Shown here: piece after piece, positions 2,114-19,932 of the stretch
Position numbering within the stretch: the first letter of the stretch is position 1
How the letters are laid out: each line of letters starts with the position of its first letter
Source of the DNA: an uncultured Acidobacteriota bacterium
GTDB lineage: Bacteria > Acidobacteriota > Thermoanaerobaculia > Multivoradales > UBA5704
Assembly: GCA_963770895.1 (NCBI GenBank)
Contig: CAVYRF010000001.1
Location: 1,760,001 to 1,824,000, forward strand
Reading direction: 5' to 3'
Length of the DNA: 64,000 nt
Notes under the pieces: model-generated
What the model was told of the DNA's origin: nothing
Seen by the model: the letters and a program-made list of their open reading frames with translations, nothing else
Database searches by the model: none
Translations under genes and position numbers: made by a program

Positions 2114-4354
2114 TCAACCGGCCACATCGATGGGCGCTTGCTGTCTCAGGGTGATCAACCCATGGCCGGCGAGTTTCTTGAGGTACCGCACCAGCCTCTC
2201 CACCTGCGGACTCTCGATGCTGCGCAGCAGATCGTCCAGCACGACCGGCTGGGGCGACTCCGTCAGCAACCGGTAGACCAGCGGGTCGAGGCAGATGCAC
2301 TTGGCACCCGCCATGCTCCAATATTTCCGCTGCCGTCCCGGCGCCAGGTTGGGCCGCGCCTCGGCCCACTCCTGAAACGAGCGGAGCGTCGGCTCGCGCG
2401 GCGTCTTGTCGAGCTGGCGCAGGTATGACGCCATGCTCTGGCGTTCTTTGATGATCTTGGCAAGATCGAATGGCGTATCGCGAACCACTCCCCGCGGTAC
2501 CACCACGCAGCCGTGCAAACCGGCATCGGCAATCTCGGTGCCATCGTCGCTGGTTTGTTGCAAATCGCGAAAAAAACGCCGTCCGTAATGATCGAAATAG
2601 ATCATGCTGTGCAGGCTGTCCACCCCTCCCGCCCAGGGCCTGCCCAGCAGGGCAGGAAAGACTCCCCCACGGTCTTCGAAGGAGGCATCCCGGTCCTCGG
2701 TGAGCAGCGTGCGCCCCTCGGCCTCGCCCGCTGCCTGTCCGTCCATCTCGTAGCCGGGAGCCCGTTCGATGTCGGCATCCTGCTTGTCGATCAACCGCAG
2801 TCCGAAACGCGAGGGGTCGCGGGCGACAATGGCCGACCCGGTGAGCTGGAAGGTCCCCATCCCGCCGGCGGACCAGAACCCGTCGTGCTCGCGGACGAAG
2901 CGCAGGGTCTCCTCTTTTTCGGCTGCGGTTTCCGACGGGAAGCCGCTGAATGTCATCAGCTGCACCGCCACTCCGGCGCCGGCAAAGTTCTTCATGGTCT
3001 CGCCCATGAAGGCAACCTTGGTGCCCTTGTCGATCAGATCGAGGACGCGCTGGTTGCCCGACTCCATGCCGAACGACACGCAGACGCAGCCGCTCTTCGC
3101 CAGCTTCTTGCAGCGCTCGGCGGAGAAGACCCTTTCCATGCGCAGCTCGGCGCCCCAGCGGATGTCCAGGCCGGCATCGACGATCGCATCGGTCAGGCGG
3201 TCCAGGTAGGCGGGCGACATCACGTCCACTGCGAAGTACACATAGCGGGTGTGGGTCGCGCCGACGATGTGAGCCAGATCCTCGATCACTTGATCCACGC
3301 CGCGCTCGCGCCACGGCGATGTCGGCTTCGAGGTGTTCAACCCATAGTCGCAGAAGGTGCAGCGATTCCAGTAGCAGCCGCGGGTCGGCGAGTAGTTGAT
3401 GCCGCGCTCCGGTGCCAGGTAGAGCTCCCATGGATAGCGGTAGAGGGGGCGGCCCAGCTGGGGTACGTTTTCATAGTGGATGTGCTGCGGCAGGAAGAGC
3501 TTCCCAGACCGTTTGTCGAAGGTGATCAGGTTCTGCACCCTGGCGCCAGGCACGACGCCGCCCGCATCGGCAATCTCGCACAGCGCAGTCTCGCCTTCGC
3601 CGACCACGATGCCGTCGCAGACGGCGAAAAAATCGGCCATGCGCTGCTTGTCTTTCATGTACTTGTAGAGCTGACTGATGGAGGTGCCGCCGAACAGCAC
3701 CTGCTTGGCAGGCCAGGCCTGCTTCACCCAGCGCGCCAGGTGCAAGGCGTGGAAAATCTGATGATCGTAGGCGACGCTGATGCCGACGCAATCGGCGGAG
3801 GAGAATTGCTCGTCCGCCGCCAGGCGCCCATCGAGGAAGCGGTCGAAGACCTGGCAGATCCTGCCGCCCAGGATCGGATCGAATAGATCGCGCAGATTGT
3901 AGGGTGAAAAGCGGCCGCGATTTGCCAGCCTGAAAGTGGTCAGCTCGCTCGGATAGCCGAGCGCTCCGAGCATCTCCATATAATCAGAGAGATCTGTTTG
4001 GTAGCGCTGGTAGTCTGGAAACGAAAGAAAGCAGCGGCGGTCACGCATCCCGGCGGCGGCGTGTCGAAGATCGTCATACCGCACCCGCCGCTGGCGCCAG
4101 AGTGCCAGATATTCTTCCTGCTCGGCAAAGCTGAGCGCAGCCTGGCGCTCGAAGGCGCTCAGCCGTCGCGCGGCCTCCTCGTAGAAGGCTGCGACGTTCT
4201 GCTCTTCCAGGGCCCAGTTGACCATCTCGATGTTGACGTCGCGGATCACCACGTCCGCAAACCCGGAATGAACCAGATGGCCGGCCAGGTAGGCGGTGGC
4301 GTGGTACGGCAGCGTCGGATCGTCGAGCGGAGGATGGGCCAACAGGATCTTCAT
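2114..4354 (-). CDS. B12-binding-domain radical SAM protein, paralog A (RiPP maturase, probable C-methyltransferase)
   Basis: CYWNRCTFC cluster motif; cobalamin-domain-like segment (VGISV...FGG...DGIVVGEGE); GMESG; C-terminal winged-helix/RRE-like segment; GAGGAG RBS. Confidence 0.9.
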   Translation of the reverse strand: MKILLAHPPLDDPTLPYHATAYLAGHLVHSGFADVVIRDVNIEMVNWALEEQNVAAFYEEAARRLSAFERQAALSFAEQEEYLALWRQRRVRYDDLRHAAAGMRDRRCFLSFPDYQRYQTDLSDYMEMLGALGYPSELTTFRLANRGRFSPYNLRDLFDPILGGRICQVFDRFLDGRLAADEQFSSADCVGISVAYDHQIFHALHLARWVKQAWPAKQVLFGGTSISQLYKYMKDKQRMADFFAVCDGIVVGEGETALCEIADAGGVVPGARVQNLITFDKRSGKLFLPQHIHYENVPQLGRPLYRYPWELYLAPERGINYSPTRGCYWNRCTFCDYGLNTSKPTSPWRERGVDQVIEDLAHIVGATHTRYVYFAVDVMSPAYLDRLTDAIVDAGLDIRWGAELRMERVFSAERCKKLAKSGCVCVSFGMESGNQRVLDLIDKGTKVAFMGETMKNFAGAGVAVQLMTFSGFPSETAAEKEETLRFVREHDGFWSAGGMGTFQLTGSAIVARDPSRFGLRLIDKQDADIERAPGYEMDGQAAGEAEGRTLLTEDRDASFEDRGGVFPALLGRPWAGGVDSLHSMIYFDHYGRRFFRDLQQTSDDGTEIADAGLHGCVVVPRGVVRDTPFDLAKIIKERQSMASYLRQLDKTPREPTLRSFQEWAEARPNLAPGRQRKYWSMAGAKCICLDPLVYRLLTESPQPVVLDDLLRSIESPQVERLVRYLKKLAGHGLITLRQQAPIDVAG

Positions 4355-4396
4355 CGCACATCTCCTCGCGCCTTGAAGCTCATCAAGGGGGCCGCG

Positions 4397-4975
4397 CTAC
4401 TCCTGCCTGGCAAGCCTGGCGGCCTGCGCAGCCTGGTGCTCGGCGACGAGCGACTTGAGCTTCGGCCACATCTCCTTGTAGGGGCAAAGGGAGCTGTTGA
4501 GGAACCGGCCGGCGGCCGCCGACCAGCCCCTGCCCAGCGGCAGCATGCAGGCGCCGAACTCGACCAGCCGGGCTACATTGGCGCGCACCGCCGGATGCGC
4601 CCACATCTCCGGCGCCATCGCCGGGCCGAAGGCGACCGGCCCGGTGAAGCTCAGATAACAGTGGGCGAGCAGCGTCTCCGCCGAACCTCCGGCGCAGCGC
4701 GCAAGGGTGGTGGCGCTGGCCGGTGCGACCAGGAAGAGATCGATGTCCTTGACCAGTTCGGGCGGGGAACGCATCGGACGCGGGTCGGACCACGGATCGA
4801 CATGCACGTCGACGCGCACCATGGCCTCGAGCGCCTGCGGATTGACAAAGCGAGCGGCGGCTGACGTCATGACCACCCGCAGCTCCTCGACCTCGGGCTC
4901 GGCCCGGAGGTTGATCAGGTAGGAGTGGATGTTAAGGACGCCGATCGAGCCGCTCACGCCGACCAGGATTCTCAT
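4397..4975 (-). CDS. HFCD-family flavoprotein (LanD/EpiD/PPC-decarboxylase-like), atypical
   Basis: ILVGVSGSI, VVMTSAAARF, LVAPASATT and PAMAPEMW motifs; lies directly after a precursor that ends in Cys. Confidence 0.88.
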   Translation of the reverse strand: MRILVGVSGSIGVLNIHSYLINLRAEPEVEELRVVMTSAAARFVNPQALEAMVRVDVHVDPWSDPRPMRSPPELVKDIDLFLVAPASATTLARCAGGSAETLLAHCYLSFTGPVAFGPAMAPEMWAHPAVRANVARLVEFGACMLPLGRGWSAAAGRFLNSSLCPYKEMWPKLKSLVAEHQAAQAARLARQE

Positions 4976-4997
4976 CGCGCAGGCTCCGCGCGCTGCC

Positions 4998-5044
4998 GCC
5001 GGTCTGCCGGAGAGGGCGTGCGACCGCCGTCTTGGCAGACCGGC
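4998..5044 (-). terminator. Stem-loop immediately downstream of precursor A
   Basis: Perfect 11-bp inverted repeat GCCGGTCTGCC (4998-5008) / GGCAGACCGGC (5034-5044); no U-tract. Confidence 0.6.
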
Positions 5045-5053
5045 CCTGACAGC

Positions 5054-5197
5054 TCAACAGCCGCCGTTGTTGTTGATATTGGTTTCTTCGTCTGAGGATG
5101 CCGCGCCGCCCGAGACATCTTCCAGCACGGTTTCGTCGATCTCACCGCTGCCAGCGTCCTCGAGTTCCTTTGCAACGTCTTCCGGTTTCTGGTCCAT
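5054..5197 (-). CDS. RiPP precursor A, 47 aa: MDQKPEDVAKELEDAGSGEIDETVLEDVSGG-AASSDEETNINNNGGC
   Basis: AAGGAGG RBS before ATG 5197; double-Gly leader EIDETVLEDVSGG; sits between the SPASM rSAM and HFCD genes. Confidence 0.92.
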   Translation of the reverse strand: MDQKPEDVAKELEDAGSGEIDETVLEDVSGGAASSDEETNINNNGGC

Positions 5198-5280
5198 GGA
5201 TTGCCTCCTTTGCCGGATCGCGACCGGCATTTGTCTGGTAAGGCACGCGGCACATGCCGCGCCCGTCGAAACCCTTACAT

Positions 5281-6756
5281 CTACTCGACGCCAGCCGCGG
5301 CGGTCTCGCCGTGCAACGGCACCGATGTCGATTCGCTTCGCCCCTCGACGGCGTCGATCAGTTCGAACTTGGCATTCCGGCGCAGCGGCGAGCACGGCGA
5401 ACTGCCGGTGTCCATGCGGATCTGCGGGCAGTAGACACCCTGGCAAACCGGCAGGATGGTGCACTTCCGGCACTTGGGGTCCTGCTCGAAGGCCGGTTCG
5501 GTCCACAACGCAAGCTTGTCCTGATCGAGCTCCATGCGACCGTCGGGGCGGAGGTAGCCCACCACGTTGCGGTCGTGCTTGTCGAGGTCGACCGTGCACT
5601 TCATCACCTTGCCGCTCGCCCCGATCAGGAAGTTGTAAGGCCGCGCCGCGTAGCAGACGTGCGAGCCCAGGCCCACTTCGGTGATCCCCGAGGCAAGGCT
5701 GAGGCCGCGCCGCTGGGCCTCCTTTTTCATCTCGCGTTCCATGCTCCAGGCGTCCTCGACGCCGCAGACCGCAAGGCTGGCGTCGTTCGGCCCACCCCAC
5801 TTGCCGACGGCGTAGAAGCGCATCTTGAAGCGCGGATCGCCGCCGAGCTCGCGCTCGATGATGTCGAGAAAGCCGCGGTAGCTCATCACGTTGTTGCGGT
5901 CGAAGTTGAAGCGCAACATGACCGTGAAGTCCTCGCTGCGGCGTGACAGCGCCTTGAGGTTGGCGAGGATGGTGCCGAAGGTTTCCTGGCCGTCGCGGGT
6001 GGGTCGAGTGCGGTTGTGGTCCTCCGGCACTCCGTCGATGGTGATCTGGAAAAACGCCACTTCCCAGGCCAGGAGCCGCTCGGCCACCTCCGGTGTGAGC
6101 AGGAAGGCGTTGGTGGTCATGTTGCTGGAGAAGCGGACCGAGTGTTCGCGGGCGATCGCCTGGAAGAACGGCGCGAGGTCCTCGATGGCCTCGAAGCCGT
6201 AGAGCGGCTCGCCGCCGAACCACGCCACCGACAGAGAGCTGAGCGAGCGGATGCGCGATTCGGTCAGCTTCTTGATGGCGGTGCGCACCGCCGGCTGCAT
6301 GGTGCCGCGGGCGAAGTCCTCGTAGCAGTAGGTGCAGCGGAAGTTGCAGTCTTCGGAGGCGAGGAGGATGAGTTGCAGGATGTCGGTGCGGTACTGGGCC
6401 TGGCCGAATTCGAGCTGGATGCGCCGGTATTCGTCAGTCCCCTCCTGGACCAGGAAGCCACGCTCGTAAAGGAGCTTGACGGCGCCCCGCCGTGCCGCCG
6501 TAAAACCCTTCTGCGTCAACAGGGTCTCGATCTTACGCCGGACTGCGACGGGGAAGACGCTCATCGTGCCGCGCAAGCTGTTCCACAGCACCAGACGGCC
6601 GTCGGTGGTGGTGGCGCGGGTGTTGTAGCGCGAGGGCACCCACCGCGTGGCGCCGGCCTCGGCCATCGCACTCCCTCCGGCGGGCACCGAGGGGATCTCC
6701 GTGTCGAGAGGAGATCGCACCAGAATGGGAAGCTTATCGCCGAGGCCGAGACTCAT
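5281..6756 (-). CDS. Radical SAM/SPASM domain peptide maturase
   Basis: CNFRCTYC, WFGGEP, SPASM cysteines (CYAA...KC...CRKCTILPVCQGVYCP...C); N-terminal RRE-like region; AAGGAGG RBS. Confidence 0.93.
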   Translation of the reverse strand: MSLGLGDKLPILVRSPLDTEIPSVPAGGSAMAEAGATRWVPSRYNTRATTTDGRLVLWNSLRGTMSVFPVAVRRKIETLLTQKGFTAARRGAVKLLYERGFLVQEGTDEYRRIQLEFGQAQYRTDILQLILLASEDCNFRCTYCYEDFARGTMQPAVRTAIKKLTESRIRSLSSLSVAWFGGEPLYGFEAIEDLAPFFQAIAREHSVRFSSNMTTNAFLLTPEVAERLLAWEVAFFQITIDGVPEDHNRTRPTRDGQETFGTILANLKALSRRSEDFTVMLRFNFDRNNVMSYRGFLDIIERELGGDPRFKMRFYAVGKWGGPNDASLAVCGVEDAWSMEREMKKEAQRRGLSLASGITEVGLGSHVCYAARPYNFLIGASGKVMKCTVDLDKHDRNVVGYLRPDGRMELDQDKLALWTEPAFEQDPKCRKCTILPVCQGVYCPQIRMDTGSSPCSPLRRNAKFELIDAVEGRSESTSVPLHGETAAAGVE

Positions 6757-6782
6757 GGCCGATCCTCCTTGGTAACACGCTT

Positions 6783-6811
6783 ACTGTAGATAAGCAATTT
6801 CATTTTGTCAA
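6783..6811 (-). promoter_or_regulatory. Sigma70-type promoter of the SPASM-precursor A-HFCD-rSAM operon
   Basis: Minus strand reads TTGACA-17 nt-TACAGT within an AT-rich patch, 26 nt upstream of the ATG. Confidence 0.75.
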
Positions 6812-6997
6812 GTTATGCGTAAGTCTATTATTCCTACATAGATGCAAGTTGGCGCGAAGGAACGCGCATGCTCTCCTCCCGCTTGGGGTCCGCGATGGCC
6901 GGCTTGCGCAGACGCGCTGGTGGTCGCGCCTTGCCTTCTGGCGTTAGGCCAGGGCAGCCCTCATAATCCGCCCCATGGAATGGAAAGGAGTCTCAGG

Positions 6998-7993
6998 ATG
7001 ACCTGTCGCCCGCCGCGGCCGCCGGCCTTTGCCATCGCCCTGCTGTGCGGAGCGCCGCTGTTCGCCCCTGGCGTCGCCGCCGCGCAGCAGGGCGCGCCGC
7101 CCGATCCCGCGGCGTATCAGCAGGAGATCGAAGCGTGGCGCGCCAACCGCGTCGCCAGCCTCAAGCAGGACCAGGGGTGGCTGGCCGACGCGGGCAGGTT
7201 CCGGCTGGACGAGGGAGAAAGCCGCGTCGGCAGCGATCCGGCGTCGCGCGTGCTGCTGCCGTCCGGCAGGGCGCCCGCCTTTGCCGGCACGCTGGCGCGG
7301 CACGGCGACGCGGTAACCTTCGTGCCCGCTCCCGGCCTGGCTCCGCCGCCCACCGCCGAGCGCCACCAGAACGGCGACCACGGCGCCCTGCTGGCCGCGC
7401 CGGCCGGCGGCGCCTTTGCGGGATCGCTGGTCCTGGCGGACGACAGCACCGAAGGCGGCCCGACCGTCGTCCACCTGGGCGCGATTTCGTTCTATGTCAT
7501 CCGGCGCTTCGACAAGATGATCGTCCGCGTCAAGGACGCCCAGGCCCCGGCGATCGCCGCCTTCCAGGGCATCGACAACTTCCCGCTGCGCGCCGACTGG
7601 CGGGTCCAGGCCCGCTTCGAGCCCTACAAGCCCCCCAAGCCGCTCACCATCACCAACGTCGTCGGTGAGATCGACGACGGCCTGGTGCCCGGCGCGGTCG
7701 TCTTCGACCACGACGGCCACTCCTACCGCCTGGACGCTTTCGACGAGGCCGACGGCCGCCTCTTCATCGTCTTCGGCGACCAGACCAACGCCTTCGAAAC
7801 CTACGGCGCCGGCCGCTTCCTGGACGCCGAAAAGCCCGCCAAGGACGGCCGCCTGATTCTCGATTTCAACAAAGCGTACAACCCCCCGTGCGCCATCTCC
7901 ACCTACGCCGTCTGCCCTCTGCCGCCGCGCCAGAACCGCCTCCCCGTCCAGGTCCAGGCCGGCGAAAAGACCTTCCGCGGGGCCCACGGCTGA
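6998..7993 (+). CDS. DUF1684-type secreted protein
   Basis: AAGGAG RBS before ATG 6998; signal-like N-terminus; FGDQTNAFETYGAGRFL and LDFNKAYNPPCA...CPLPP motifs. Confidence 0.88.
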   Translation: MTCRPPRPPAFAIALLCGAPLFAPGVAAAQQGAPPDPAAYQQEIEAWRANRVASLKQDQGWLADAGRFRLDEGESRVGSDPASRVLLPSGRAPAFAGTLARHGDAVTFVPAPGLAPPPTAERHQNGDHGALLAAPAGGAFAGSLVLADDSTEGGPTVVHLGAISFYVIRRFDKMIVRVKDAQAPAIAAFQGIDNFPLRADWRVQARFEPYKPPKPLTITNVVGEIDDGLVPGAVVFDHDGHSYRLDAFDEADGRLFIVFGDQTNAFETYGAGRFLDAEKPAKDGRLILDFNKAYNPPCAISTYAVCPLPPRQNRLPVQVQAGEKTFRGAHG

Positions 7994-8122
7994 GACGCCT
8001 CCCTTCTCAATGGCAGCCGCGCGACCTTGACTTGCCGCAGGGTTGCGCACAGCATATTGCGAAGATGCGTTAGTGCAAGCCACTGGACCTGACTCGGCCC
8101 GGTGGCGGGGGAGCGTGGCACC

Positions 8123-9460: not shown

Positions 9461-9470
9461 CACCGGGAGC

Positions 9471-9584
9471 TCAGTTGGGATTGTTGATGATGTTGTTGTT
9501 GTCGTCCGGCTTCGCATCGCCGCCCGACACGTCTTCCAGAACCTCGTCATCCAGCTCTGCACTCTTGGACTTCTCGTCGGCCAT
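9471..9584 (-). CDS. RiPP precursor B, 37 aa: MADEKSKSAELDDEVLEDVSGG-DAKPDDNNNIINNPN
   Basis: Translated by hand (below the ORF-track cutoff); AAAGGAG RBS; leader end VLEDVSGG identical to precursor A; directly downstream of rSAM paralog B. Confidence 0.92.
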   Translation of the reverse strand: MADEKSKSAELDDEVLEDVSGGDAKPDDNNNIINNPN

Positions 9585-9676
9585 GGGATGGCTCCTTTGG
9601 GTGAATACCTCCGTTCAACATGAACGAAGGCCGTCATCAGCGTGGTTGCTATCCGCCATTGCAAGGTCAGGCGGGC

Positions 9677-12001
9677 TCATCTGGGCGCCGCCACCATCGG
9701 CGCGGGATCGGAACCCGGTTCCGAGTGTCGCGGCGTCCACCCCTGCCGGGGCCCGCGGGATCTCCCGGCAGCCGTCGGCATTGCCGCCTTCTGCGACGCC
9801 GTCAATACGATCAGGCCTTGCGCGGCGAGCCGCCGGAAGTAGCGCAGGAACCTGGCGGCCTCCGGCTGGTCGACACGGCCGAGCAGCTCCCGCAGCGTGA
9901 CCGTCTGCGTCTCGGTCGCCGCCAGCAGCTGGTAGACGAACGGATCGATCCGCACACACTTGGCGCCGGCCATCGCCCAGTAGCGGCGTTGCGGGCCGGC
10001 TGCCAGCGCGGTGCGGCCGGCAGCCCATTCGCGATAGGCCTGCTGCGTCGGTTCGCGCGGGACCTTGGCCAGCGCCGCCAGATAGGACGCCATCTGTTTG
10101 CGTTCGCGCAGGATCGTGGCCAGGTCGTACGGTGAGTCCCGCAGCACCCCCGGCACCCCGACGGCGCACGCCAGCAGCTGCTCGTCCGACATCGCATCGT
10201 CGGTGTCGAGGTTGTCGCGGAAAAAGCGCCGGCCGTAGAAATCGTAATAAATCATGCTGTGCAGGCTGTCGGTGCCGCCGGCCCAAGGTCTTCCCAGCAT
10301 CAGGGGAAAGATGTTGCCGCGGGCGTCGAACGAAGCGTCGCGGTCTTCGGTGAGCATCGCCTTGCTCTCTTCGCCCCGCGCGTCGTCTTCCAGCTCGTAG
10401 GCCGGCGCCCGCAGCACGTCGACGTCCTGCTTTTCGATCAGGCGCACGCCGAAGCGGCCGGGGTCCTTGGCGACGATCGCCGTGCCGGTCAGCAGGAAGG
10501 TGCCGATGCCGCCGGTGGACCAGTAGTCGTCGTGGTCGCGGACGAAGCGATGGGTCTCCGCCTTTTCTGCCGCGGTTTCCGATGGGAAGTCGGAGAACGC
10601 CATGAGCTGGACCGCGACGCCGGCCTCCGCGAAGTTCTTCATCGTTTCGCCCATGAAGGCGACCTTGGTGCCTTTGTCGATCAGGTCCAGGATGCGCTGG
10701 CTGCCGGACTCCATGCCGAACGAGACGCAGACGCAGCCGCTGGCCGCCAGCTTGGCGCAGCGGTCTTGCGTGAAAACCTTTTCCAAGCGCATTTCCGCCG
10801 CCCAGCGGATGTCCAGATCGGCGGCGGCGATGGCGTCGGACAGCCTGTCCAGGTAGGCGGGCGCCATGACGTCGACGGCGAAATAGACATACCGGGCACC
10901 GGTTTCGCCAATGGCGCTGCGCAGGTCGTCGACCGCCTGGTCGACCCGGCGCTCGCGCCATGGGGAGGTCGGCTTGGAGGTGTTGAGGCCGTAGTCGCAA
11001 AACGTGCAGCGATTCCAATAGCAGCCGCGCGTGGGCGAATAGTTGATGCCGCGCGCCGGCGCCAGGTACAGGTCCCACGGGTAGCGGAAAAGCGGGCGGC
11101 CCAGGGCCGGCACGTTCTCGTAATGGATGCAGTCGGGCAGGTACAGCTTGTCCGCCGTGCGGTCGTACGAGATGAGGTTGTGGACCTTGGCGCCGGGCTT
11201 GACCTGCCCGGCGTCGGCGATCTGGCACAGCGCCGTCTCGCCTTCGCCGACGACGATGCCATCGCACATTTCGAAAAAGCGCCGCATCTGCTGCTTGTCG
11301 CGGATGTACTTGTAAAACTGGCTGATCGAGGTGCCGCCCAGCAGGATCTGCTTGTCCGGCCAGCGCCGCTTCGCCCACCGTGCCATGTGCAGGGCGTGAA
11401 ACATCTGGTGGTCGTAGACGATGCTGAGCCCCAGGCAGTCCGCGGCGGCGAGCTGGGCGTCGTCCGCCAGCCGCTCGTCGAGGAAGCGATCGAAGACCTG
11501 GCAGATCGTTGCGGTCAGGCCGGGTTCGAAAAGATCGCGGAAGTTGTAGGGCGAAAAGCGGCCGCGGCTGACCTGCCTGAAGTTGGTCACGTCGCCGGGG
11601 TAGCTGAGGCTGCCGAGCATGCTTTCGTAACGCAGCAAGCTCATCCGAAAGGTCTTGTACTCATCGAAAGCAAGGAAGGCGTCGCGATCGCGCAATCCGG
11701 CGAGCGATCGTTGCAGCTGTTCGTAGGAGACGCGATGCTGGCGCCAGAGGCCGAGGTACTCTTCCTGCTCCAGGAAGGACAGCGACCCTTTGCGTTCCAA
11801 GGCCTTCAACCGCCGGTCGGCCTCTTCGTAGAACGACGAGAAGACCGCTTCCTCGAACGTCCAATTCACCATCTCGATGTTGACGTCGCGGATGGCGACG
11901 TCGTCGAAGCCGCAATGCACCAGGTGGCCGGCGAGGTAGGCGGTCGAATGGTACGGCAACGTGGGATCGTCGAGCGGCGGGTGCGCGAGCACGATCTTCA
12001 T
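9677..12001 (-). CDS. B12-binding-domain radical SAM protein, paralog B
   Basis: Colinear paralog of 2114-4354 (MKIVLAHPPLDDPTLPYH, CYWNRCTFCDYGLNTSKPTSPWRER); GGAGG RBS supports start 12001 rather than 12133. Confidence 0.9.
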   Translation of the reverse strand: MKIVLAHPPLDDPTLPYHSTAYLAGHLVHCGFDDVAIRDVNIEMVNWTFEEAVFSSFYEEADRRLKALERKGSLSFLEQEEYLGLWRQHRVSYEQLQRSLAGLRDRDAFLAFDEYKTFRMSLLRYESMLGSLSYPGDVTNFRQVSRGRFSPYNFRDLFEPGLTATICQVFDRFLDERLADDAQLAAADCLGLSIVYDHQMFHALHMARWAKRRWPDKQILLGGTSISQFYKYIRDKQQMRRFFEMCDGIVVGEGETALCQIADAGQVKPGAKVHNLISYDRTADKLYLPDCIHYENVPALGRPLFRYPWDLYLAPARGINYSPTRGCYWNRCTFCDYGLNTSKPTSPWRERRVDQAVDDLRSAIGETGARYVYFAVDVMAPAYLDRLSDAIAAADLDIRWAAEMRLEKVFTQDRCAKLAASGCVCVSFGMESGSQRILDLIDKGTKVAFMGETMKNFAEAGVAVQLMAFSDFPSETAAEKAETHRFVRDHDDYWSTGGIGTFLLTGTAIVAKDPGRFGVRLIEKQDVDVLRAPAYELEDDARGEESKAMLTEDRDASFDARGNIFPLMLGRPWAGGTDSLHSMIYYDFYGRRFFRDNLDTDDAMSDEQLLACAVGVPGVLRDSPYDLATILRERKQMASYLAALAKVPREPTQQAYREWAAGRTALAAGPQRRYWAMAGAKCVRIDPFVYQLLAATETQTVTLRELLGRVDQPEAARFLRYFRRLAAQGLIVLTASQKAAMPTAAGRSRGPRQGWTPRHSEPGSDPAPMVAAPR

Positions 12002-12372
12002 TTGCGACCTCCTTGGCGTTGCGTTCCGCCTGCCGTCGGAGCGAAGGATCTGCCGGGGCGTCTCCTTCGTCTCATGGTGCTTCGTATATGCCAACATTAC
12101 CCTATAACAGTGAGTAGTTGATACGCAATACAACGTACAAATGAAATCATGTTTAATACCTGACAGGGGTGGTCAGTTTATGGGACAAGCGCCCCAATTA
12201 CAGGCCGCGCCAGACTCTTTTCGCCGGGTTTTTGTGCTGCTCAATCTGTGCTAAGTGCCTTGTAGAAATCGATGCTTACGTAGTACTCTCTGTTTTGCGC
12301 GGTTTTGTGAGGCCGCGGGGCGCTGTCCTGGGCCTGGCAGGCCTCTCCTCGTGGAGCGCGGGACAAGGGCGA

Positions 12373-14151
12373 ATGGCACTGAACATCCTGGGGATCTCAG
12401 CGCACTACCACGATGCATCCTGTTGCCTGTTGCGCGACGGGCAGCTCATCTGCGCGGCGGAGGAAGAGCGCTTCTCCCGCGTCAAGCACGACAGCCGCCT
12501 GCCCTGGCGCTCTTTTCGCTTCTGCCTCGAACAGGGGGGCATCACCCTGCCCGAGGTCGACTGCGTCGCCTACTATGAAAATCCTGAAAAGAAGCTGTCC
12601 CGGCAGATCTGGATGGCCCTGCATCCGGATGCCTCCGACTCCATCCGCCGCAGCGTTCTGAGCCGGCTGCCGGATCGCGTCGACCGGGTCGAACGGCAGA
12701 TCCGCCACCAGCTCGGCTACACCGGCCGGTTGGAGCTTTTCGATCATCACCAGTCTCACGCCGCCAGCAGCTTTTTTTACTCCGGGTTCGAAGAGGCCGC
12801 GGTGTTGACCGTGGACGGCGTGGGCGAATGGGCGACGACCGCCTTCGGCGCCGCCGCCGGCGCCGCCATCGATCTGTTCGAAGAGGTCCGCTTCCCCAAC
12901 TCGCTGGGCATGCTGTACAGCGCCATGACCGCGTATCTGGGCTTTGACGTCAACGACGGCGAATACAAAGTCATGGGGCTCGCCCCCTACGGAGAGCCGC
13001 GCTACGTCGACCAGGTGCGCGCCCTGGTGACGCGGCAAGGGGACGGCCAGTACCGGCTCAACCTCCAGTATTTCGATTTCCTGCGGCGCAACCGGATGTA
13101 TTCGGACCAACTGGTGGATCTATTCGGGGCACCGCCGCGGTTGCCCGAGGCGGAGCTGCTGGCATTTCACCAGGACGTCGCGCGCAGCGTCCAGTGGGTG
13201 CTCGAAGAGATCCTGCTCGAAAAAGTGCACTACCTCCACGACCGGGTTCCCAGCCGCAACCTCTGCATGGCGGGCGGCGTCGCGCTCAACTGCGTGGCCA
13301 ACAGCCGCATCCTCCGCGACGGGCCCTTCGCCCAGCTGTTCGTACAGCCCGCCGCGAGCGATGCCGGCGGCTGCCTGGGCGCCGCCGCCCTGGCGCACGT
13401 GCGCCTGACCGGCGAGCGGCCGGCCCAGGGCCGCCTGGCCCACATGTACTGGGGCCCCGCCACGCCGGTCGAAGACGTCGCCGGCATGCTCGCCGGAACC
13501 GCGCTGCCGGCCCTCGACTTCCGCTGCCGGCCCGACGACCTGCTGCAGGCGACCGTCGAGCGCCTGGCGGCCGGCAAGGTCGTGGGCTGGTTCCAGGGCC
13601 GCATGGAGTTCGGACCGCGCGCGCTGGGGGCCAGGTCGATCCTGGCGGACCCGCGCGACGAAGGCATGCGCGACCGGATCAACGCCCTGGTCAAGATGCG
13701 CGAAAGCTTCCGTCCCTTCGCCCCGGCGGTTCTCGAAAGCCGGGCGCGGGATCACTTCGCCATCGACCATCCCTCTCCCTTCATGCTGGAAACCTGCCCG
13801 GTCAGCTCGCCGATCCATCTGCCGGCGGTCACCCACGTCGACCGCTCGGCCCGCCTGCAGACCGTCGACCCGGCGTCGAGCCCGCGCTTCGCCGCCCTCC
13901 TGGAGCGCTTTGCCGATCGCACCGGCTGCCCGATCCTGCTCAACACCTCCTTCAACGTCCGCGGCGAACCCATCGTCCGCACGCCGGAGGAGGCGCTGCT
14001 CTGTTTTGCACGCTCGGGCATCGATACCCTGGTCCTCGAAGACTTCGTCATCGACCGCCAATCGGTGCCGCCGGCCTGGAGCCAGCTGCTGCCGAAGCAG
14101 GAGCGACCCGGCGGGCCGAGGGTGAGCCACCAGGTGTACACGCTGCTGTAG
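12373..14151 (+). CDS. Carbamoyltransferase (NodU/CmcH/TobZ family)
   Basis: ILGISAHYHD, EEERFSRVKH, HHQSHAAS, DGVGE, EYKVMGLAPYG, GGVALNC, EFGPRALG, LNTSFN; start set at ATG 12373. Confidence 0.95.
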   Translation: MALNILGISAHYHDASCCLLRDGQLICAAEEERFSRVKHDSRLPWRSFRFCLEQGGITLPEVDCVAYYENPEKKLSRQIWMALHPDASDSIRRSVLSRLPDRVDRVERQIRHQLGYTGRLELFDHHQSHAASSFFYSGFEEAAVLTVDGVGEWATTAFGAAAGAAIDLFEEVRFPNSLGMLYSAMTAYLGFDVNDGEYKVMGLAPYGEPRYVDQVRALVTRQGDGQYRLNLQYFDFLRRNRMYSDQLVDLFGAPPRLPEAELLAFHQDVARSVQWVLEEILLEKVHYLHDRVPSRNLCMAGGVALNCVANSRILRDGPFAQLFVQPAASDAGGCLGAAALAHVRLTGERPAQGRLAHMYWGPATPVEDVAGMLAGTALPALDFRCRPDDLLQATVERLAAGKVVGWFQGRMEFGPRALGARSILADPRDEGMRDRINALVKMRESFRPFAPAVLESRARDHFAIDHPSPFMLETCPVSSPIHLPAVTHVDRSARLQTVDPASSPRFAALLERFADRTGCPILLNTSFNVRGEPIVRTPEEALLCFARSGIDTLVLEDFVIDRQSVPPAWSQLLPKQERPGGPRVSHQVYTLL

Positions 14152-14181
14152 GTTTGCCAGCGCCCTTACCCTGGAGGAGCC

Positions 14182-16212
14182 GTGCCGGAACAGCCTGACC
14201 ACGACCAGCTTTTGAAAGCGGTCGCCGACGCGACGGCGGGCCTGCTCAGCCAGGGCGACGGCGCCGCCGCCGTTCTGATCCTGGAGCGCCTGGGCCTGCT
14301 GAAGGCGGCGGCCAGGAAGACCGCCGCCGCCTCGCCCGGCACGATCGGCGTGTGGGAGGCCGGGCCGCAGGGGCACCAGCGTTCGGCCGCGCGGCGCGAC
14401 GACTGGCATTTCTGGGCCGATGTCCAGTCCATTCCGCCCAAGGGGGAGCGGCCGCGGGTGGCGCTGGTGGGCGAATCGGTGGCCCGCGGTTTTCTCTACG
14501 ACCCGGCGTTCAATCCGGCCCAGGCCCTGGAGGCTTGCCTGACGGCGGCCCTCGGACAGCCGGTCGAAGTGCTCGACCTCGCCAAGATCGACCTGCTGCC
14601 CCAGGAGCTCATGAGCCTCACCGAGGCGGCGACCACGCTGGCGCCCGACGTGCTGGTGGTCTTCGCTGGCAATAACTGGTTCATGCACGACCAGCGCGAC
14701 CTGCCGATCGAAGCGGCCGCCCTGCGCGAGCGGGGAGCTGCCGGGCTCAAGGAGCTGCGCGAGCAGCGCCTGGCCGCCTTTGCCGCCGGCACTTTCCGGC
14801 AGCTGCTCACCGAGCTATCCCAGCGCCAGCCGCTGGTGGTGGTGGTTCCAGAGATCAACCTCGCCGACTGGCGCCTGGATGCGGAAGCGGATGCGCCCTG
14901 GCTGCCGGACGGACGCAACCGCCTCTGGCTGGAATGCCGCGCGGCGGCCCGCGCCGCGCTGGCCGCCGGTCGCCTGGACCAAGCGGCGGCCCTGGCGCGC
15001 CAGATGATCGACCTGGACGGCGGCACCGCGGCTTCCGGCTGGACCCTGCTGGCCGACTGCGCGCGCGCCACGGCAGAGACGGAAACCGCCCGCGCCTGCC
15101 TTGAAAAGGCGCGCGACGCTCACACCTGGGACTACACCCACCAGACGCCGCGGATTCTCTCTCTCGCCCAGGGCGCCTTGCGGGACTGCGCGCTGCCCGG
15201 CCGCATCGCAATCGTCGACCTGCCGCGCTGTTTCGCCGCCTGGCGCCCCGGCGAGCTCCCCGGCCGGCGCCTGTTCCTGGACTACTGCCACATGAGCGCG
15301 GAGGGGATCCGCGTCGCCATGGCGGCGACGGCATTACAGGTTGCGACGCTGCTGGACGCCAGCCGGCCGCTTCCGGCGCTGGCGAGCGTGGTCGAAGCTG
15401 CCCCCGCCCCCGACGCCCGCATCGAGGCGGCGGCCCAGTTTGCCGGGGCGCTCCATTCCGCGCATTGGGGCCAGGTGAGCCCGTTCGTCTCGGCTCTCTG
15501 TCACCAGGCCGCCCAGACGTCCCCCGAAATCGCCCAGGCGATGCGGCTCTACCTGGAATTGCAGGTCCGGCAGGCGCCGGTGTGGGCCTGCGCGGCGGCC
15601 GGGCAGCTGGCCGACGTGGCGCCGCCTTTCCTGCGCCGCTACATCCTGCATCCCCACAAAAGGCTTTTCGACCCGGTGCTGCTGCCGGCCATCGCCGGCG
15701 CGCTCGAAGAAACCGGCCTGCCCACGCTGGCCTTTCTCACCGAGCTGCGCCAGCAGGAGAGGAGCCTTTCCAACCGTCCGCGCAACCTCCTGGACCCCTA
15801 CCATCGCGCGTCCTGGGCGGACCTCGACTGGCTGGACTGGCCCAACCATTTCTGCCGCGCCTACAGCCCCAGGTCGCGCTACCCCTGGGTTTCCCGCACG
15901 CCGCGCGACCTGGCGTTCACCCTGACCTGCCGGCGCCGGCACGCGGCCGGCCCCAGCGAGTGCCACCTGTCGATCAACGGCACCTGCGCCGGACGCCTGT
16001 CCCTCACCGCCGGCTGGAGCACCTATCGCTTCAGCGCCCCCGCGGCGCTGGTGCAGGCCGGAGTGAACTGGCTGGAGATCGACTGGCCTGCCGATCCTGC
16101 GGATGGCGAACAGGCGATCGGCAGCATCGCTCATCAGCTGGAGCTTCGCCGCTACACCCCGCTGCTTCCGGTCTTTGCGGAGATCTATTCGCTGACCGCC
16201 GTCGAGACCTGA
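14182..16212 (+). CDS. SGNH/GDSL-hydrolase-like protein with helical insert
   Basis: VALVGESVARG (block I-like), FAGNN, FLDYCH (DxxH); GGAGGAG RBS; follows the carbamoyltransferase on the same strand. Confidence 0.65.
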   Translation: MPEQPDHDQLLKAVADATAGLLSQGDGAAAVLILERLGLLKAAARKTAAASPGTIGVWEAGPQGHQRSAARRDDWHFWADVQSIPPKGERPRVALVGESVARGFLYDPAFNPAQALEACLTAALGQPVEVLDLAKIDLLPQELMSLTEAATTLAPDVLVVFAGNNWFMHDQRDLPIEAAALRERGAAGLKELREQRLAAFAAGTFRQLLTELSQRQPLVVVVPEINLADWRLDAEADAPWLPDGRNRLWLECRAAARAALAAGRLDQAAALARQMIDLDGGTAASGWTLLADCARATAETETARACLEKARDAHTWDYTHQTPRILSLAQGALRDCALPGRIAIVDLPRCFAAWRPGELPGRRLFLDYCHMSAEGIRVAMAATALQVATLLDASRPLPALASVVEAAPAPDARIEAAAQFAGALHSAHWGQVSPFVSALCHQAAQTSPEIAQAMRLYLELQVRQAPVWACAAAGQLADVAPPFLRRYILHPHKRLFDPVLLPAIAGALEETGLPTLAFLTELRQQERSLSNRPRNLLDPYHRASWADLDWLDWPNHFCRAYSPRSRYPWVSRTPRDLAFTLTCRRRHAAGPSECHLSINGTCAGRLSLTAGWSTYRFSAPAALVQAGVNWLEIDWPADPADGEQAIGSIAHQLELRRYTPLLPVFAEIYSLTAVET

Positions 16213-19903: not shown

Positions 19904-19932
19904 CGCTATAGCATATGGTGGAGAGAGCGAGC

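What the first reader, a model, noticed from the sequence alone, without database searches (positions are those of the whole stretch)
2114..16212. Candidate new RiPP family: Asn-rich double-Gly precursors with paired B12 radical SAMs, SPASM rSAM, HFCD, cupin and carbamoyltransferase
Seen: two tiny precursors share the leader end (E-I/L-D-x-x-VLEDVSGG) and have acidic, Asn-rich cores (AASSDEETNINNNGGC; DAKPDDNNNIINNPN). Each is co-oriented with its own B12-type radical SAM paralog, and no lanthipeptide dehydratase, kinase/lyase or YcaO was recognised. Established: class B rSAMs such as PoyB/PoyC C-methylate peptide residues, and C39 ABC transporters cleave after GG. Inference: this is a family of heavily modified Asn-rich peptides, with an enzyme combination I cannot assign to a described class.
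Basis: partly seen in the sequence, partly recalled or inferred. Interest (0 to 1): 0.92.

Follow-up and report, generated by a model that had tools for sequence, protein, structure and literature searches.

The report
Asn-rich peptide cluster with B12 radical-SAM enzymes
A soil acidobacterium carries a gene cluster that makes two tiny asparagine-rich peptides, each paired with its own vitamin-B12-dependent radical enzyme, and the same enzyme family sits next to asparagine- or glutamine-rich peptides in dozens of other environmental genomes, which points to an undescribed family of modified peptides.

Summary
Two short ORFs (5054-5197 and 9471-9584, minus strand) share the leader end VLEDVSGG and have acidic, Asn-rich cores. 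Each is co-oriented with one of two 67%-identical B12-type radical SAM paralogs. The SPASM radical SAM, HFCD flavoprotein, cupin and carbamoyltransferase are all real.

The cluster is longer than reported and runs to about 28592. It also holds an SGNH hydrolase, an ADOP permease, DUF7005 and a complete NHLP-type export cassette with a C39 peptidase.

The organism is an acidobacterium. A profile of the leader finds 91 database peptides: 90 carry LEDVxGG and 81 have at least 4 Asn in the core.

In sister clades of the enzyme the leader is unrelated (PEELEPRLELQ, with an RRE-M50 protease), yet the cores are again poly-Asn, poly-Gln or NNC-rich. The enzyme therefore tracks carboxamide-rich cores, not the leader.

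The most likely mechanism is leader-guided, repeated C-methylation of Asn, followed by variable tailoring and GG cleavage on export. The chemistry is inferred. The HFCD lacks the usual catalytic His.

No curated family and none of eight literature searches describes this system. Verdict: real, conserved, and probably a new RiPP family.

The parts
2114..4354 (-). B12rSAM1: 746-aa B12-binding-type radical SAM, last gene of the operon SPASM-preA-HFCD-rSAM1
   Evidence: Pfam Radical_SAM scores 45.4 bits (cut-off 29.5). B12-binding scores 28.6 bits, E 1.4e-6, below the 32.1 cut-off. Best NCBIfam hits are PhpK-type at 75.2 bits and TIGR03975 at 72.7 bits, both far below their cut-offs. It is 67% identical to rSAM2. 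Orthologs of 87-89% identity exist in metagenomes.
4397..4975 (-). HFCD-type flavoprotein (192 aa), atypical
   Evidence: Pfam Flavoprotein scores 74.7 bits, above the 22.7 cut-off. The CypD family model scores 30.6 against a cut-off of 215. In 5 of 5 printed alignments to solved HFCDs, the His that lies about 15 residues before the PA(T/S)A motif aligns with Pro, Ser, Val or a gap.
5054..5197 (-). preA: 47-aa precursor, with leader to the GG at residues 30-31 and a 16-aa core that ends in Cys
   Evidence: About 11 close relatives in the database have cores that end in NN(I/N)NNGGC or NGSC.
4985..5053 (-). Stable RNA hairpin directly after the preA stop codon
   Evidence: One search folded 4985-5060 (-): -47.7 kcal/mol, z -3.50, and 1 of 200 shuffles folded as well.
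5281..6756 (-). Radical SAM/SPASM peptide maturase (491 aa)
   Evidence: Best NCBIfam hit is TIGR04463 at 190.2 bits (cut-off 525); PapB scores 96.3 (cut-off 340). CNFRCTYC and the C-terminal Cx2Cx5Cx3C can be read directly. A promoter-like site lies at 6811-6783 (-), but the count of 1 equals the chance expectation.
6842..7993 (+). DUF1684 protein with a signal-peptide-like N-terminus; probably a passenger
   Evidence: It is not found in any related locus. A 50% paralog lies elsewhere in the genome.
8102..9364 (+). 3-His cupin plus C-terminal helical domain (420 aa, no Pfam hit)
   Evidence: H103, H105, H164 and H168 are invariant in 38 sequences. AF2 model: pLDDT 93.2. Top Foldseek hits are thiol dioxygenases (ADO, MDO, CDO), E from 4.9e-6. 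Orthologs are present in L004, L005 and L011. The family has 1843 representatives at E<=1e-3.
9471..9584 (-). preB: 37-aa precursor, with leader to the GG at residues 21-22 and a 15-aa acidic, Asn-rich core
   Evidence: The orthologous position is filled in 10 other loci.
9677..12001 (-). B12rSAM2: 774-aa B12-binding-type radical SAM directly upstream of preB
   Evidence: The start is set at M45 of the 818-aa ORF by alignment to rSAM1. C327, C332 and C335 (Cx4Cx2C) are invariant in 26 homologs. The complex model with preB gives weak support.
12169..14151 (+). Carbamoyltransferase of the TobZ/NodU type (the real start is probably near 12345-12375)
   Evidence: Carbam_trans_N scores 235 bits and Carbam_trans_C 228.9 bits. 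Orthologs of 81-82% identity in L004, L005 and L014 align from query residue 59-71.
14182..16212 (+). SGNH hydrolase with a helical/TPR insert and a C-terminal beta-sandwich (676 aa)
   Evidence: G97-E98-S99, G163-N164-N165 and D367-x-x-H370 are invariant or nearly invariant in 30 sequences. AF2 model: pLDDT 88.8. Foldseek finds GDSL esterases, crocagin CgnD (8a2n, E 2.9e-3) and CBM35-like modules. It is adjacent to the carbamoyltransferase in L004, L005 and L014.
16225..18630 (-). ADOP-family duplicated MacB/FtsX-type permease (the ORF stays open to 19089; the family match starts at residue 154)
   Evidence: TIGR03434 scores 822.5 bits, above the 622.3 cut-off. An ADOP gene follows the precursor in 7 of 7 type-1 loci that have enough flank.
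18716..19903 (-). DUF7005 protein (395 aa), function unknown
   Evidence: PF22541 scores 460.5 bits. It is conserved beside the export genes and the radical SAM in 10 related loci. No PDB relative was found.
19915..21537 (+). TolC-like outer-membrane efflux protein
   Evidence: Pfam OEP. TIGR01844 scores 69 bits, below its cut-off.
21540..22775 (+). NHLP-system HlyD-type adaptor
   Evidence: TIGR03794 scores 344.5 bits, above the 156.2 cut-off.
22768..24981 (+). NHLP-type ABC exporter with an N-terminal C39 peptidase (the GG leader cleavage enzyme)
   Evidence: Peptidase_C39 scores 116.4 bits. TIGR03796 scores 1073.3 bits, above the 853.3 cut-off.
24995..27967 (+). Second NHLP-type ABC subunit (990 aa)
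   Evidence: TIGR03797 scores 919.5 bits, above the 709.4 cut-off.
28023..28592 (+). Cyclic-nucleotide-binding, bacteriocin-transport-associated protein
   Evidence: cNMP_binding scores 69 bits. TIGR03896 scores 149.1 bits, just below the 161.05 cut-off. It lies directly before the radical SAM in about 10 related loci.

Best explanation
This is a RiPP biosynthetic gene cluster, spanning about 2114-28592, in an uncultured soil acidobacterium. It has two sub-pathways.

Shown by sequence:
- Two ribosomal precursors carry a shared double-glycine leader (...VLEDVSGG) and acidic, Asn-rich cores.
- Each lies in an operon with its own paralog of a large, uncharacterised clade of B12-binding-type radical SAM enzymes.
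- An NHLP-type C39 ABC exporter set is present in the cluster.

Inferred mechanism:
1. The radical SAM binds the leader.
2. It acts repeatedly on the Asn residues of the core. The most likely reaction is methylation of unactivated side-chain or alpha carbons, using methylcobalamin as class B radical SAM methyltransferases do.
3. The preB-type peptide is then tailored by the 3-His cupin (oxidation), the carbamoyltransferase (carbamoylation of a hydroxyl or amine) and the SGNH hydrolase (ester or amide hydrolysis, possibly trimming).
4. The preA-type peptide is instead cross-linked through its conserved C-terminal Cys by the SPASM radical SAM, with the atypical HFCD flavoprotein acting on that Cys.
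5. The C39 ABC system cleaves after GG and exports the products through HlyD and TolC.
6. The ADOP permease acts as a second exporter or as self-protection.
For: Reality of the precursors:
- Ribosome-binding sites and downstream hairpins are present.
- The Asn-richness is extremely rare in this genome.
- 91 database peptides match the leader profile. 90 have LEDVxGG, 81 of those 90 have 4 or more Asn in the core, 70 have an NNN run, and Asn is 33.9% of core residues.

Synteny:
- An LEDVSGG plus poly-Asn ORF lies directly after the radical SAM in L001, L002, L004, L005, L011, L014, L016, L048, L067, L075 and the window.
- An ADOP gene follows in 7 of 7 loci with enough flank.
- Carbamoyltransferase plus SGNH are present in L004, L005, L014 and the window; the cupin is present in L004, L005, L011 and the window.

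The enzyme tracks carboxamide-rich cores across unrelated leaders:
- 22 loci of the 50-59%-identity clades (one locus at 66%) have a PEELEPRLELQ-type leader. Their cores are poly-Asn, NQ repeats, poly-Gln or NNC(R)DGGNC.
- These leaders come with an RRE/M50-like HExxH protease, not a C39 peptidase.
- On the enzyme tree, precursor type follows clade; the GG clade of 14 rows has 100% support.

Enzyme class:
- Radical_SAM is above its cut-off and B12-binding has E about 1e-6.
- The nearest curated families are peptide or phosphinate C/P-methyltransferases, namely TIGR03975 and PhpK, and the MCR glutamine C-methyltransferase also hits weakly.
- PoyB and PoyC are B12-dependent radical SAM C-methyltransferases of a RiPP (passages of PMC11285071; PMC10288494).

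Binding:
- The complex model of rSAM2 with preB scores 0.57 against a best control of 0.02; the tool's verdict is 'weak support'. That mark was reached by 58 of 80 solved complexes and 2 of 110 mismatched pairs. At 0.60 or under it was reached by only 7 of those 80 solved complexes and by both of the 2 mismatches that passed. Runs agree in at least 45% of contacts, and the partner's pLDDT is at least 48.

Export:
- TIGR03794, TIGR03796 and TIGR03797 all score above their curated cut-offs.
- The cassette lies next to the radical SAM in 11 related loci.

Precedent for the tailoring logic:
- In crocagin biosynthesis an oxygenase, the carbamoyltransferase CgnI and an esterase-fold leader protease CgnD work together (passages of PMC10070186).
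Against: - No chemistry was observed, so methylation is an inference from enzyme class.
- The radical SAMs score far below the cut-off of the PoyB/C-type family: 72.7 and 81.9 bits against 281.85.
- They have no solved sequence relative; the best hit is E 0.0076.
- They carry a Cx4Cx2C motif in place of the canonical Cx3Cx2C.
- The B12-binding domain is below Pfam's gathering score.
- In 27 of 57 full-length homolog loci, my patterns found no precursor.
- The cupin resembles thiol dioxygenases, but 72 of 90 cores have no Cys.
- The carbamoyltransferase-SGNH pair also occurs elsewhere in the genome without any RiPP context, and it was not found in the 6 kb downstream of L002.
- The HFCD lacks the canonical His.
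- The complex score is only weak support.
Confidence: 0.6

Rival explanations
1. The same RiPP system, but the B12-type radical SAM does not methylate. Instead it performs another radical reaction on the carboxamide residues, such as a C-C or C-N cross-link between neighbouring Asn or Gln residues, a rearrangement, or an epimerisation-like H-abstraction.
For: The enzyme is very distant from every curated methyltransferase family; all NCBIfam hits are far below cut-off. It has no solved sequence relative. It has an unusual Cx4Cx2C motif and an uncharacterised C-terminal region of about 250 aa. NCBIfam's own list of weaker hits includes non-methylating B12 or B12-like radical SAMs such as BchE cyclase and AprD4 dehydratase. 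Homopolymeric Asn or Gln substrates have no precedent that I could find.
Against: The two highest-scoring curated families for both paralogs are methyltransferases. Among characterised RiPP class B enzymes in the texts I read, methylation is the known activity.
Confidence: 0.25
2. Nothing new: the locus is an ordinary member of an existing class, such as a proteusin/NHLP-type cluster or a lanthipeptide-type cluster, and the radical SAM is a routine PoyB/C-like tailoring enzyme.
For: The export cassette is the curated NHLP bacteriocin system. In a sister subclade (L003, L007) the same radical SAM sits with LanC-like and lantibiotic-dehydratase genes and CC-containing GG precursors. TIGR03975 is the first or second best hit.
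Against: The leaders are 21-31 aa and match no NHLP, Nif11 or other precursor model. No lanthipeptide dehydratase, cyclase or YcaO was found in the window. The radical SAM scores are about a quarter of the TIGR03975 cut-off. Poly-Asn and poly-Gln cores are not a feature of those classes in any text I found.
Confidence: 0.1
3. The short ORFs are not substrates, or not genes. In this reading the radical SAMs act on a non-peptide substrate such as a lipid, cofactor or glycan, and the carbamoyltransferase-SGNH pair points to polysaccharide modification.
For: JGI annotates many homologs as BchE-like or YgiQ-like. The SGNH protein has a CBM35-like C-terminal domain. The carbamoyltransferase-SGNH pair exists without a radical SAM elsewhere in the genome. 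No precursor was found in 27 of 57 loci.
Against: The ORF, its leader motif and its Asn-rich core are conserved in position across 11 loci and 91 database entries. A second, unrelated leader family with N/Q-rich cores and an RRE-protease sits beside the sister clades. A dedicated C39 exporter is present. The L006 and L029 loci contain only a precursor, a protease and a radical SAM next to housekeeping genes.
Confidence: 0.03

Closest known systems
Proteusins, e.g. polytheonamides (PoyA with the B12-dependent radical SAM C-methyltransferases PoyB and PoyC; NHLP/Nif11 leaders; NHLP export cassette)
   Same: Both are RiPPs in which paired class-B-type radical SAM paralogs act on a peptide. Both use the same curated export cassette, TIGR03794/03796/03797. 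Asn-rich cores are also a feature of polytheonamide, where Asn is N-methylated by PoyE (passages).
   Different: The leaders are 21-31 aa and match no NHLP or Nif11 model. The radical SAMs are far below the TIGR03975 cut-off. The cores are 11-32 aa, acidic and near-homopolymeric in Asn. No epimerase, PoyE-type N-methyltransferase or dehydratase was seen.
Crocagin pathway (CgnC oxygenase, CgnI carbamoyltransferase, CgnD esterase-fold leader protease)
   Same: It is a RiPP pathway that combines an oxygenase, a carbamoyltransferase and an esterase-fold hydrolase (passages of PMC10070186). CgnD appears among the fold matches of the SGNH protein (8a2n, E 2.9e-3).
   Different: The fold match is weak (TM 0.22/0.44) and is shared with many GDSL esterases. 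The oxygenase here is a 3-His cupin, not an Fe/2OG enzyme. I did not search for CgnB/CgnE-type binding proteins. The core chemistry (Ile-Tyr-Trp against poly-Asn) is unrelated.
HFCD peptidyl-cysteine decarboxylases (EpiD, MrsD, CypD) that form AviCys
   Same: A flavoprotein-fold gene lies directly after a precursor whose core ends in Cys. 14 of 90 family cores end in Cys.
   Different: The canonical active-site His is absent in 5 of 5 alignments. That this His is the catalytic one is my recollection. The protein scores higher to CoaC than to CypD. No Ser/Thr dehydratase is present to provide a Michael acceptor.
SPASM thioether-forming maturases (ranthipeptide PapB; TIGR04463, Clo7bot and CefB families)
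   Same: It has a radical SAM Cx3Cx2C motif plus the SPASM Cys motif, and these are its best family hits. The substrate has Cys plus Asp and Glu.
   Different: All scores are well below the curated cut-offs: 190 against 525, and 96 against 340. The substrate has a single Cys, not a Cys-rich core.
Methyl-coenzyme M reductase glutamine C-methyltransferase (TIGR04014) and other class B radical SAM methyltransferases, e.g. those of the clavusporins
   Same: These are B12-type radical SAMs that methylate an unactivated carbon of a carboxamide residue in a polypeptide (family name). Multiple C-methylations of a ribosomal peptide are reported for clavusporins (abstract seen in the listing).
   Different: The similarity is only 26-33 bits. 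The substrate there is a folded enzyme or a hydrophobic peptide, not a leader-bearing poly-Asn peptide.

Membership tests
RiPP biosynthetic gene cluster (general) | A short precursor gene with a conserved leader and a variable core, next to modifying enzymes | tested here: met
   Alignment A5: VLEDVSGG is invariant in 11 of 11 sequences while the cores vary. 91 database relatives were found. Synteny is shown.
RiPP biosynthetic gene cluster (general) | A leader-removing protease or exporter matched to the leader type | tested here: met
   A C39 ABC transporter lies in the cluster (116.4 bits; TIGR03796 1073.3 above 853.3). The GG motif is present in both precursors.
Proteusin / NHLP-Nif11 family | Precursor with a nitrile-hydratase-like or Nif11-like leader | tested here: not met
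   No NCBIfam or Pfam hit above noise for preA, preB or 6 related precursors at E<=1. The leaders are only 21-31 aa.
Proteusin / NHLP-Nif11 family | NHLP bacteriocin export cassette (HlyD, ABC1 with C39, ABC2) | tested here: met
   344.5 above 156.2; 1073.3 above 853.3; 919.5 above 709.4 bits.
TIGR03975 RiPP maturation radical SAM C-methyltransferase (PoyB/C type) | Score at or above the curated cut-off of 281.85 bits | tested here: not met
   72.7 bits (rSAM1) and 81.9 bits (rSAM2).
Class B (cobalamin-binding) radical SAM | N-terminal B12-binding domain followed by a radical SAM domain | tested here: inconclusive
   Radical_SAM scores 45.4 and 37.5 bits, above the 29.5 cut-off. B12-binding scores 28.6 and 29.5 bits (E about 1e-6), below the 32.1 cut-off. 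PF02310 is precomputed for most homologs. Cobalamin binding itself cannot be tested here.
Class B (cobalamin-binding) radical SAM | Canonical Cx3Cx2C cluster motif | tested here: not met
   The motif is C-YWNR-C-TF-C, that is Cx4Cx2C. All three Cys are invariant in 26 of 26 homologs.
HFCD peptidyl-Cys decarboxylase (LanD/CypD) | Flavoprotein (PF02441) fold | tested here: met
   74.7 bits, above the 22.7 cut-off.
HFCD peptidyl-Cys decarboxylase (LanD/CypD) | Conserved active-site His upstream of the PASANT-type motif | tested here: not met
   It aligns to Pro, Ser, Val or a gap in 5 of 5 alignments (6tgv, 7cfu, 1qzu, 6jls, 3qjg). That this His is catalytic is recalled, not shown by a call.
HFCD peptidyl-Cys decarboxylase (LanD/CypD) | Substrate peptide with a C-terminal Cys | tested here: met
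   preA ends in GGC. 14 of 90 family cores end in Cys.
SPASM radical SAM peptide maturase | Cx3Cx2C motif plus a C-terminal SPASM Cys motif | tested here: met
   CNFRCTYC and C-RK-C-TILPV-C-QGVY-C are read. 60 NCBIfam radical SAM/SPASM families hit, none at its cut-off.
ADOP duplicated permease (TIGR03434) | Score at or above the curated cut-off | tested here: met
   822.5 bits, above the 622.3 cut-off.
Thiol dioxygenase (CDO/ADO/MDO) cupins | 3-His metal site in a cupin fold | tested here: met
   H103, H105 and H164 (plus H168) are invariant. Foldseek E from 4.9e-6, with TM normalised to the target of 0.46-0.68.
Thiol dioxygenase (CDO/ADO/MDO) cupins | A thiol substrate | tested here: inconclusive
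   preB and 72 of 90 family cores contain no Cys. The real substrate is unknown.
Lanthipeptides | LanB, LanM, LanKC or LanL dehydratase and a LanC cyclase in the cluster | tested here: not met
   None was found among the window ORFs scanned. They are present only in the sister-subclade loci L003 and L007.

The most novel reading that the evidence does not exclude
This clade of B12-type radical SAMs defines an undescribed RiPP class whose substrates are near-homopolymeric Asn or Gln tracts. The clade has 946 database homologs at E<=1e-3, and the named ones are all Acidobacteriota. The enzyme would carry out a modification of carboxamide residues that has no characterised precedent: either exhaustive C-methylation of every Asn or Gln, or a non-methylating radical reaction. 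Evolution has attached this enzyme to at least three leader and processing systems: GG leaders with C39 export, PEELEPRLELQ leaders with RRE-M50 proteases, and lanthipeptide-type clusters. The regular ADOP partner would also give the orphan ADOP permease family its first functional context, as a RiPP exporter or immunity protein.
Probability: 0.45. Interest if true: 0.88.

Novelty: new variant of a known kind. Interest (0 to 1): 0.8.

Why it matters
If the inference holds, this is a widespread and unstudied RiPP family from soil Acidobacteria, a phylum that is abundant but poorly explored for natural products. It would have an unusual substrate logic, with homopolymeric Asn or Gln cores, and a radical SAM clade that has no structural or biochemical relative.

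It offers three things:
- A new enzyme for C-H functionalisation of polar residues in peptides.
- A simple three-gene version (precursor, RRE-M50 protease, radical SAM) that is well suited to heterologous reconstitution.
- A first testable functional link for ADOP permeases and DUF7005.

The 3-His cupin, carbamoyltransferase and SGNH trio suggests further chemistry not previously seen on Asn-rich peptides.

Tried and rejected
Actinomycete origin. I assumed this at first from the 64-77% GC. I rejected it because all 7 genome loci and all named homologs are Acidobacteriota, Thermoanaerobaculia, Holophagales or Blastocatellia.

Phylum-wide genome scan. Only 2 of 401 sampled genomes, G000 included, had a homolog at E<=1e-100. 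The family is therefore rare among the species representatives searched, although it is common in metagenomes.

Literature. Eight full-text searches found no description of poly-Asn or poly-Gln RiPPs with B12 radical SAMs. The ADOP search was swamped by the word 'adopt'. The library lacks most subscription-journal papers, and I did not consult supplements, so a prior description cannot be excluded.

Curated precursor models. None fits.

Rfam. There were no matches in 1-32000, so no cobalamin riboswitch was found.

Expression. No RNA holder was listed for 4300-12100, and I did not use read laying.

Promoter and terminator scan. The counts equal the chance expectation.

Solved structures by sequence. 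Nothing useful was found for the radical SAM or for DUF7005.

Protein Atlas. It gave only 'hypothetical protein' and DUF7005 clusters.

Second carbamoyltransferase-SGNH pair on contig C2. I looked for a RiPP context and found none.

Third architecture. In the loci where the export module lies directly upstream of the radical SAM, I found no convincing precursor within 2.5 kb downstream.

I considered and rejected the following assignments:
- ApyD-like, PhpK-like or BchE-like: all far below cut-off.
- Lanthipeptide: no dehydratase in the window.
- Lys carbamoylation as the role of the carbamoyltransferase: only 26 of 90 cores contain Lys.

The complex prediction gave 'weak support' and no interface, so it does not show which domain binds the leader.

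Full report
1. WHAT IS THERE

The window is high-GC DNA, 64-77%, so I chose genes by third-position GC and then annotated them. Between 2114 and 28592 the genes are as follows.

- B12rSAM1 (2114-4354, -)
- HFCD flavoprotein (4397-4975, -)
- preA (5054-5197, -)
- SPASM radical SAM (5281-6756, -)
- A secreted DUF1684 protein (6842-7993, +)
- A 420-aa protein with no Pfam hit (8102-9364, +)
- preB (9471-9584, -)
- B12rSAM2 (9677-12001, -)
- Carbamoyltransferase (12169-14151, +)
- A 676-aa protein (14182-16212, +)
- ADOP permease (16225 to about 18630, -)
- DUF7005 (18716-19903, -)
- TolC-like protein (19915-21537, +)
- HlyD adaptor (21540-22775, +)
- C39 ABC transporter (22768-24981, +)
- A second ABC subunit (24995-27967, +)
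- A cyclic-nucleotide-binding protein (28023-28592, +)

Each has a good ribosome-binding site. A hairpin follows preA (z -3.5); the one after preB is weaker (z -1.56). The two B12-type radical SAMs are 67% identical over 737 residues. That alignment also moves the start of the second one to 12001.

2. IS IT MORE THAN CHANCE?

Asn is 1.0% of the six-frame translation of the 8.16-Mb genome. Only 8 ten-residue windows in all six frames hold 5 or more Asn, and preB is one of them. Genome-wide, the LEDVSGG leader occurs only in these two ORFs.

3. RELATIVES

All 7 loci recovered from species-representative genomes are acidobacterial MAGs. The protein database holds 946 homologs at E<=1e-3 among the 8000 candidates scored. 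The 120 listed are all 50% or more identical, and all are unnamed or generically named. In a sample of 401 genomes of the phylum, only 2 (G000 included) have a homolog at E<=1e-100. A metagenome scan gave 229 confirmed stretches, of which 80 were kept as loci.

In the clade that is 67% or more identical to rSAM2, an ORF with the invariant leader end VLEDVSGG and an acidic-then-poly-Asn core lies directly after the radical SAM. This holds in L001, L002, L004, L005, L011, L014, L016, L048, L067 and L075, as it does in the window.
- An ADOP permease follows in 7 of the 7 loci that extend far enough.
- The carbamoyltransferase and the 676-aa gene recur in L004, L005 and L014.
- The 420-aa gene recurs in L004, L005 and L011.
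- In L002 none of these three was found in the 6 kb downstream.

A profile of the 11 precursors retrieves 91 database peptides at E<=0.01.
- 90 have LEDVxGG.
- Of those 90, 81 have 4 or more Asn in the core and 70 have an NNN run.
- Asn is 33.9% of core residues.
- 74 have at least 2 Asp or Glu in the first 8 core residues.
- 14 end in Cys.
- The preA type is a sub-family of about 11 members whose cores end in ...NN(I/N)NNGGC or ...NGSC.

4. THE ENZYME FOLLOWS THE CORE, NOT THE LEADER

In the more distant clades (50-59% identity, one locus at 66%), 22 loci carry a completely different leader...L(L/M)xELxPEELEPRLELQ(V/L)x(V/L)DP.... Their cores fall into these groups:
- poly-Asn (L029, L079, L082)
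- NQ repeats (L052)
- poly-Gln (L006, L021, L033, L034, L055)
- NNC(R)DGGNC-type cores (L022-L026, L028, L036, L039, L041, L084, L088)
- NNDTNNNC-type cores (L027, L037)

Between precursor and radical SAM these loci encode a protein of about 430 aa. It has invariant HExxH and NPxFxFDG motifs and weak PqqD and M50 Pfam hits. I read it as an RRE-fused membrane metalloprotease. In L006 and L029 the system is just precursor, protease and radical SAM beside housekeeping genes.

A sub-clade of the GG clade (L003, L007, L013, L015, L074) has GG leaders with N- and CC-containing cores upstream of the radical SAM. In L003 and L007, the two of these loci that I scanned, the radical SAM sits with LanC-like, lantibiotic-dehydratase and JmjC genes.

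On a FastTree tree of 57 full-length enzymes, precursor type follows clade. The 14-row GG clade, which contains both window paralogs, has 100% local support. However, in 27 of the 57 rows my patterns found no precursor. Some of these are short contigs. Others belong to a third architecture in which the whole export module directly precedes the radical SAM.

5. THE ACCESSORY PROTEINS

The 420-aa protein:
- It has four invariant His residues: H103, H105, H164 and H168.
- The model is confident (pLDDT 93.2).
- Its cupin domain is most like the 3-His thiol dioxygenases (Foldseek E from 4.9e-6).
- Most cores have no Cys, so its substrate is unclear.

The 676-aa protein:
- It keeps the SGNH catalytic blocks: GES at 97-99, GNN at 163-165 and DxxH at 367-370.
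- The model has pLDDT 88.8.
- It matches GDSL esterases, including the crocagin hydrolase CgnD, and it ends in a CBM35-like beta-sandwich.

In crocagin biosynthesis an oxygenase, a carbamoyltransferase (CgnI) and the esterase-fold CgnD (a leader protease) work on one RiPP (passages of PMC10070186). A review passage also notes RRE-carbamoyltransferase fusions (PMC12710340).

Against a dedicated role, a second carbamoyltransferase-SGNH pair (61% and 32% identity) lies elsewhere in the genome without any RiPP context.

The HFCD passes the Pfam flavoprotein model. In 5 of 5 alignments to solved HFCDs, however, the His upstream of the PA(T/S)A motif is replaced. That this His is catalytic is my recollection.

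The SPASM enzyme has the expected Cys motifs but reaches no curated family cut-off.

6. EXPORT

The HlyD, C39-ABC and second ABC genes pass the curated NHLP-bacteriocin equivalogs, and the cyclic-nucleotide-binding protein falls just under TIGR03896. The cassette, usually with DUF7005, lies beside the radical SAM in L004, L031, L032, L035, L045, L046, L051, L058, L060, L069 and L077. It therefore belongs to the system, and the finding's right border at 16212 is too short.

7. MECHANISM

Shown:
- The gene content.
- Conservation of the precursor-radical SAM pairing.
- A GG leader together with a C39 exporter.

Inferred:
- The radical SAM binds the leader. The complex model scores 0.57 against a best control of 0.02; the tool calls this 'weak support'. 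The mark was reached by 58 of 80 solved complexes and 2 of 110 mismatches, but scores at or below 0.60 are more often wrong than right unless the pairing was likely beforehand. Run agreement is at least 45% and the partner's pLDDT at least 48.
- It modifies Asn, because Asn or Gln is the only feature common to all the core types.
- The reaction is most likely C-methylation, because the best curated relatives are class B methyltransferases and PoyB and PoyC are the RiPP precedent.

Doubts:
- The scores are about a quarter of the family cut-off.
- The cluster motif is Cx4Cx2C.
- No solved relative exists.

8. NOVELTY

No precursor model fits, no enzyme reaches an equivalog cut-off apart from the exporter and ADOP proteins, and eight literature searches found nothing. 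The searched library is incomplete and I did not consult supplements.

I rate this a new variant of a known kind: a RiPP with class-B-type radical SAM tailoring and NHLP export, but with an undescribed enzyme clade, an undescribed substrate type and an undescribed enzyme combination.

Noticed in passing
window 47574-63998 (+), open at the 3' end: A giant NRPS ORF of at least 5475 aa. Its first 3000 aa hold 3 condensation, 2 adenylation and 3 carrier domains. It forms a separate biosynthetic cluster 19 kb from the RiPP cluster.
   Followed up: partly
L006, L021, L033, L034, L055 (e.g. L006:8438-8638): Precursors with a PEELEPRLELQ-type leader and cores of 12-14 consecutive Gln. Each lies next to an RRE/M50-like protease and a homolog of the B12-type radical SAM.
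   Followed up: partly
L003:6576-9863 and L007:3799-9800: In a sister sub-clade the same radical SAM sits with LanC-like, lantibiotic-dehydratase-C and JmjC genes. These loci have up to three GG-leader precursors with ...N(A/S)CC... cores.
   Followed up: partly
window 18716-19903 (-); L031, L032, L035, L045, L046, L051, L058, L060, L069, L077: DUF7005 is conserved between the second NHLP ABC subunit and the cyclic-nucleotide-binding protein, directly upstream of the radical SAM, in 10 related loci. It has no PDB relative and no functional lead.
   Followed up: partly
window 28707-32132 (+): A 1141-aa protein with zinc-ribbon, adenylate/guanylate cyclase, AAA and TPR domains lies directly after the cyclic-nucleotide-binding transport-associated protein. 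This may mean that export is regulated by cyclic nucleotides.
   Followed up: no
genome contig C2: 3337610-3337861 (+) and 4466973-4467245 (+): Two further double-glycine-type short ORFs with Cys-containing cores and different leaders (LDSVSGG, LESVAGG) lie elsewhere in the genome.
   Followed up: no
genome contig C2: 5189997-5194156 (locus L091): A second carbamoyltransferase plus SGNH-hydrolase pair (61% and 32% identity) lies beside a 1691-aa transglutaminase-like protein and an M14 peptidase-like protein. No precursor or radical SAM is present.
   Followed up: yes
window 2000-14000: GC content is 64-68% here against 70-77% in the flanks. This fits horizontal acquisition of the modifying genes, although part of the dip comes from AAY-rich Asn codons.
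   Followed up: no
L001:5350-5451: A second B12-type radical SAM gene begins right after the ADOP permease. It is 85% identical to rSAM2 over 34 aa before the contig ends. Tandem radical SAM modules therefore occur in relatives too.
   Followed up: no
rSAM2 residues 327-335 (window about 10997-11023, -): The radical SAM cluster motif is Cx4Cx2C (C-YWNR-C-TF-C), not the canonical Cx3Cx2C. It is invariant in 26 of 26 homologs.
   Followed up: partly
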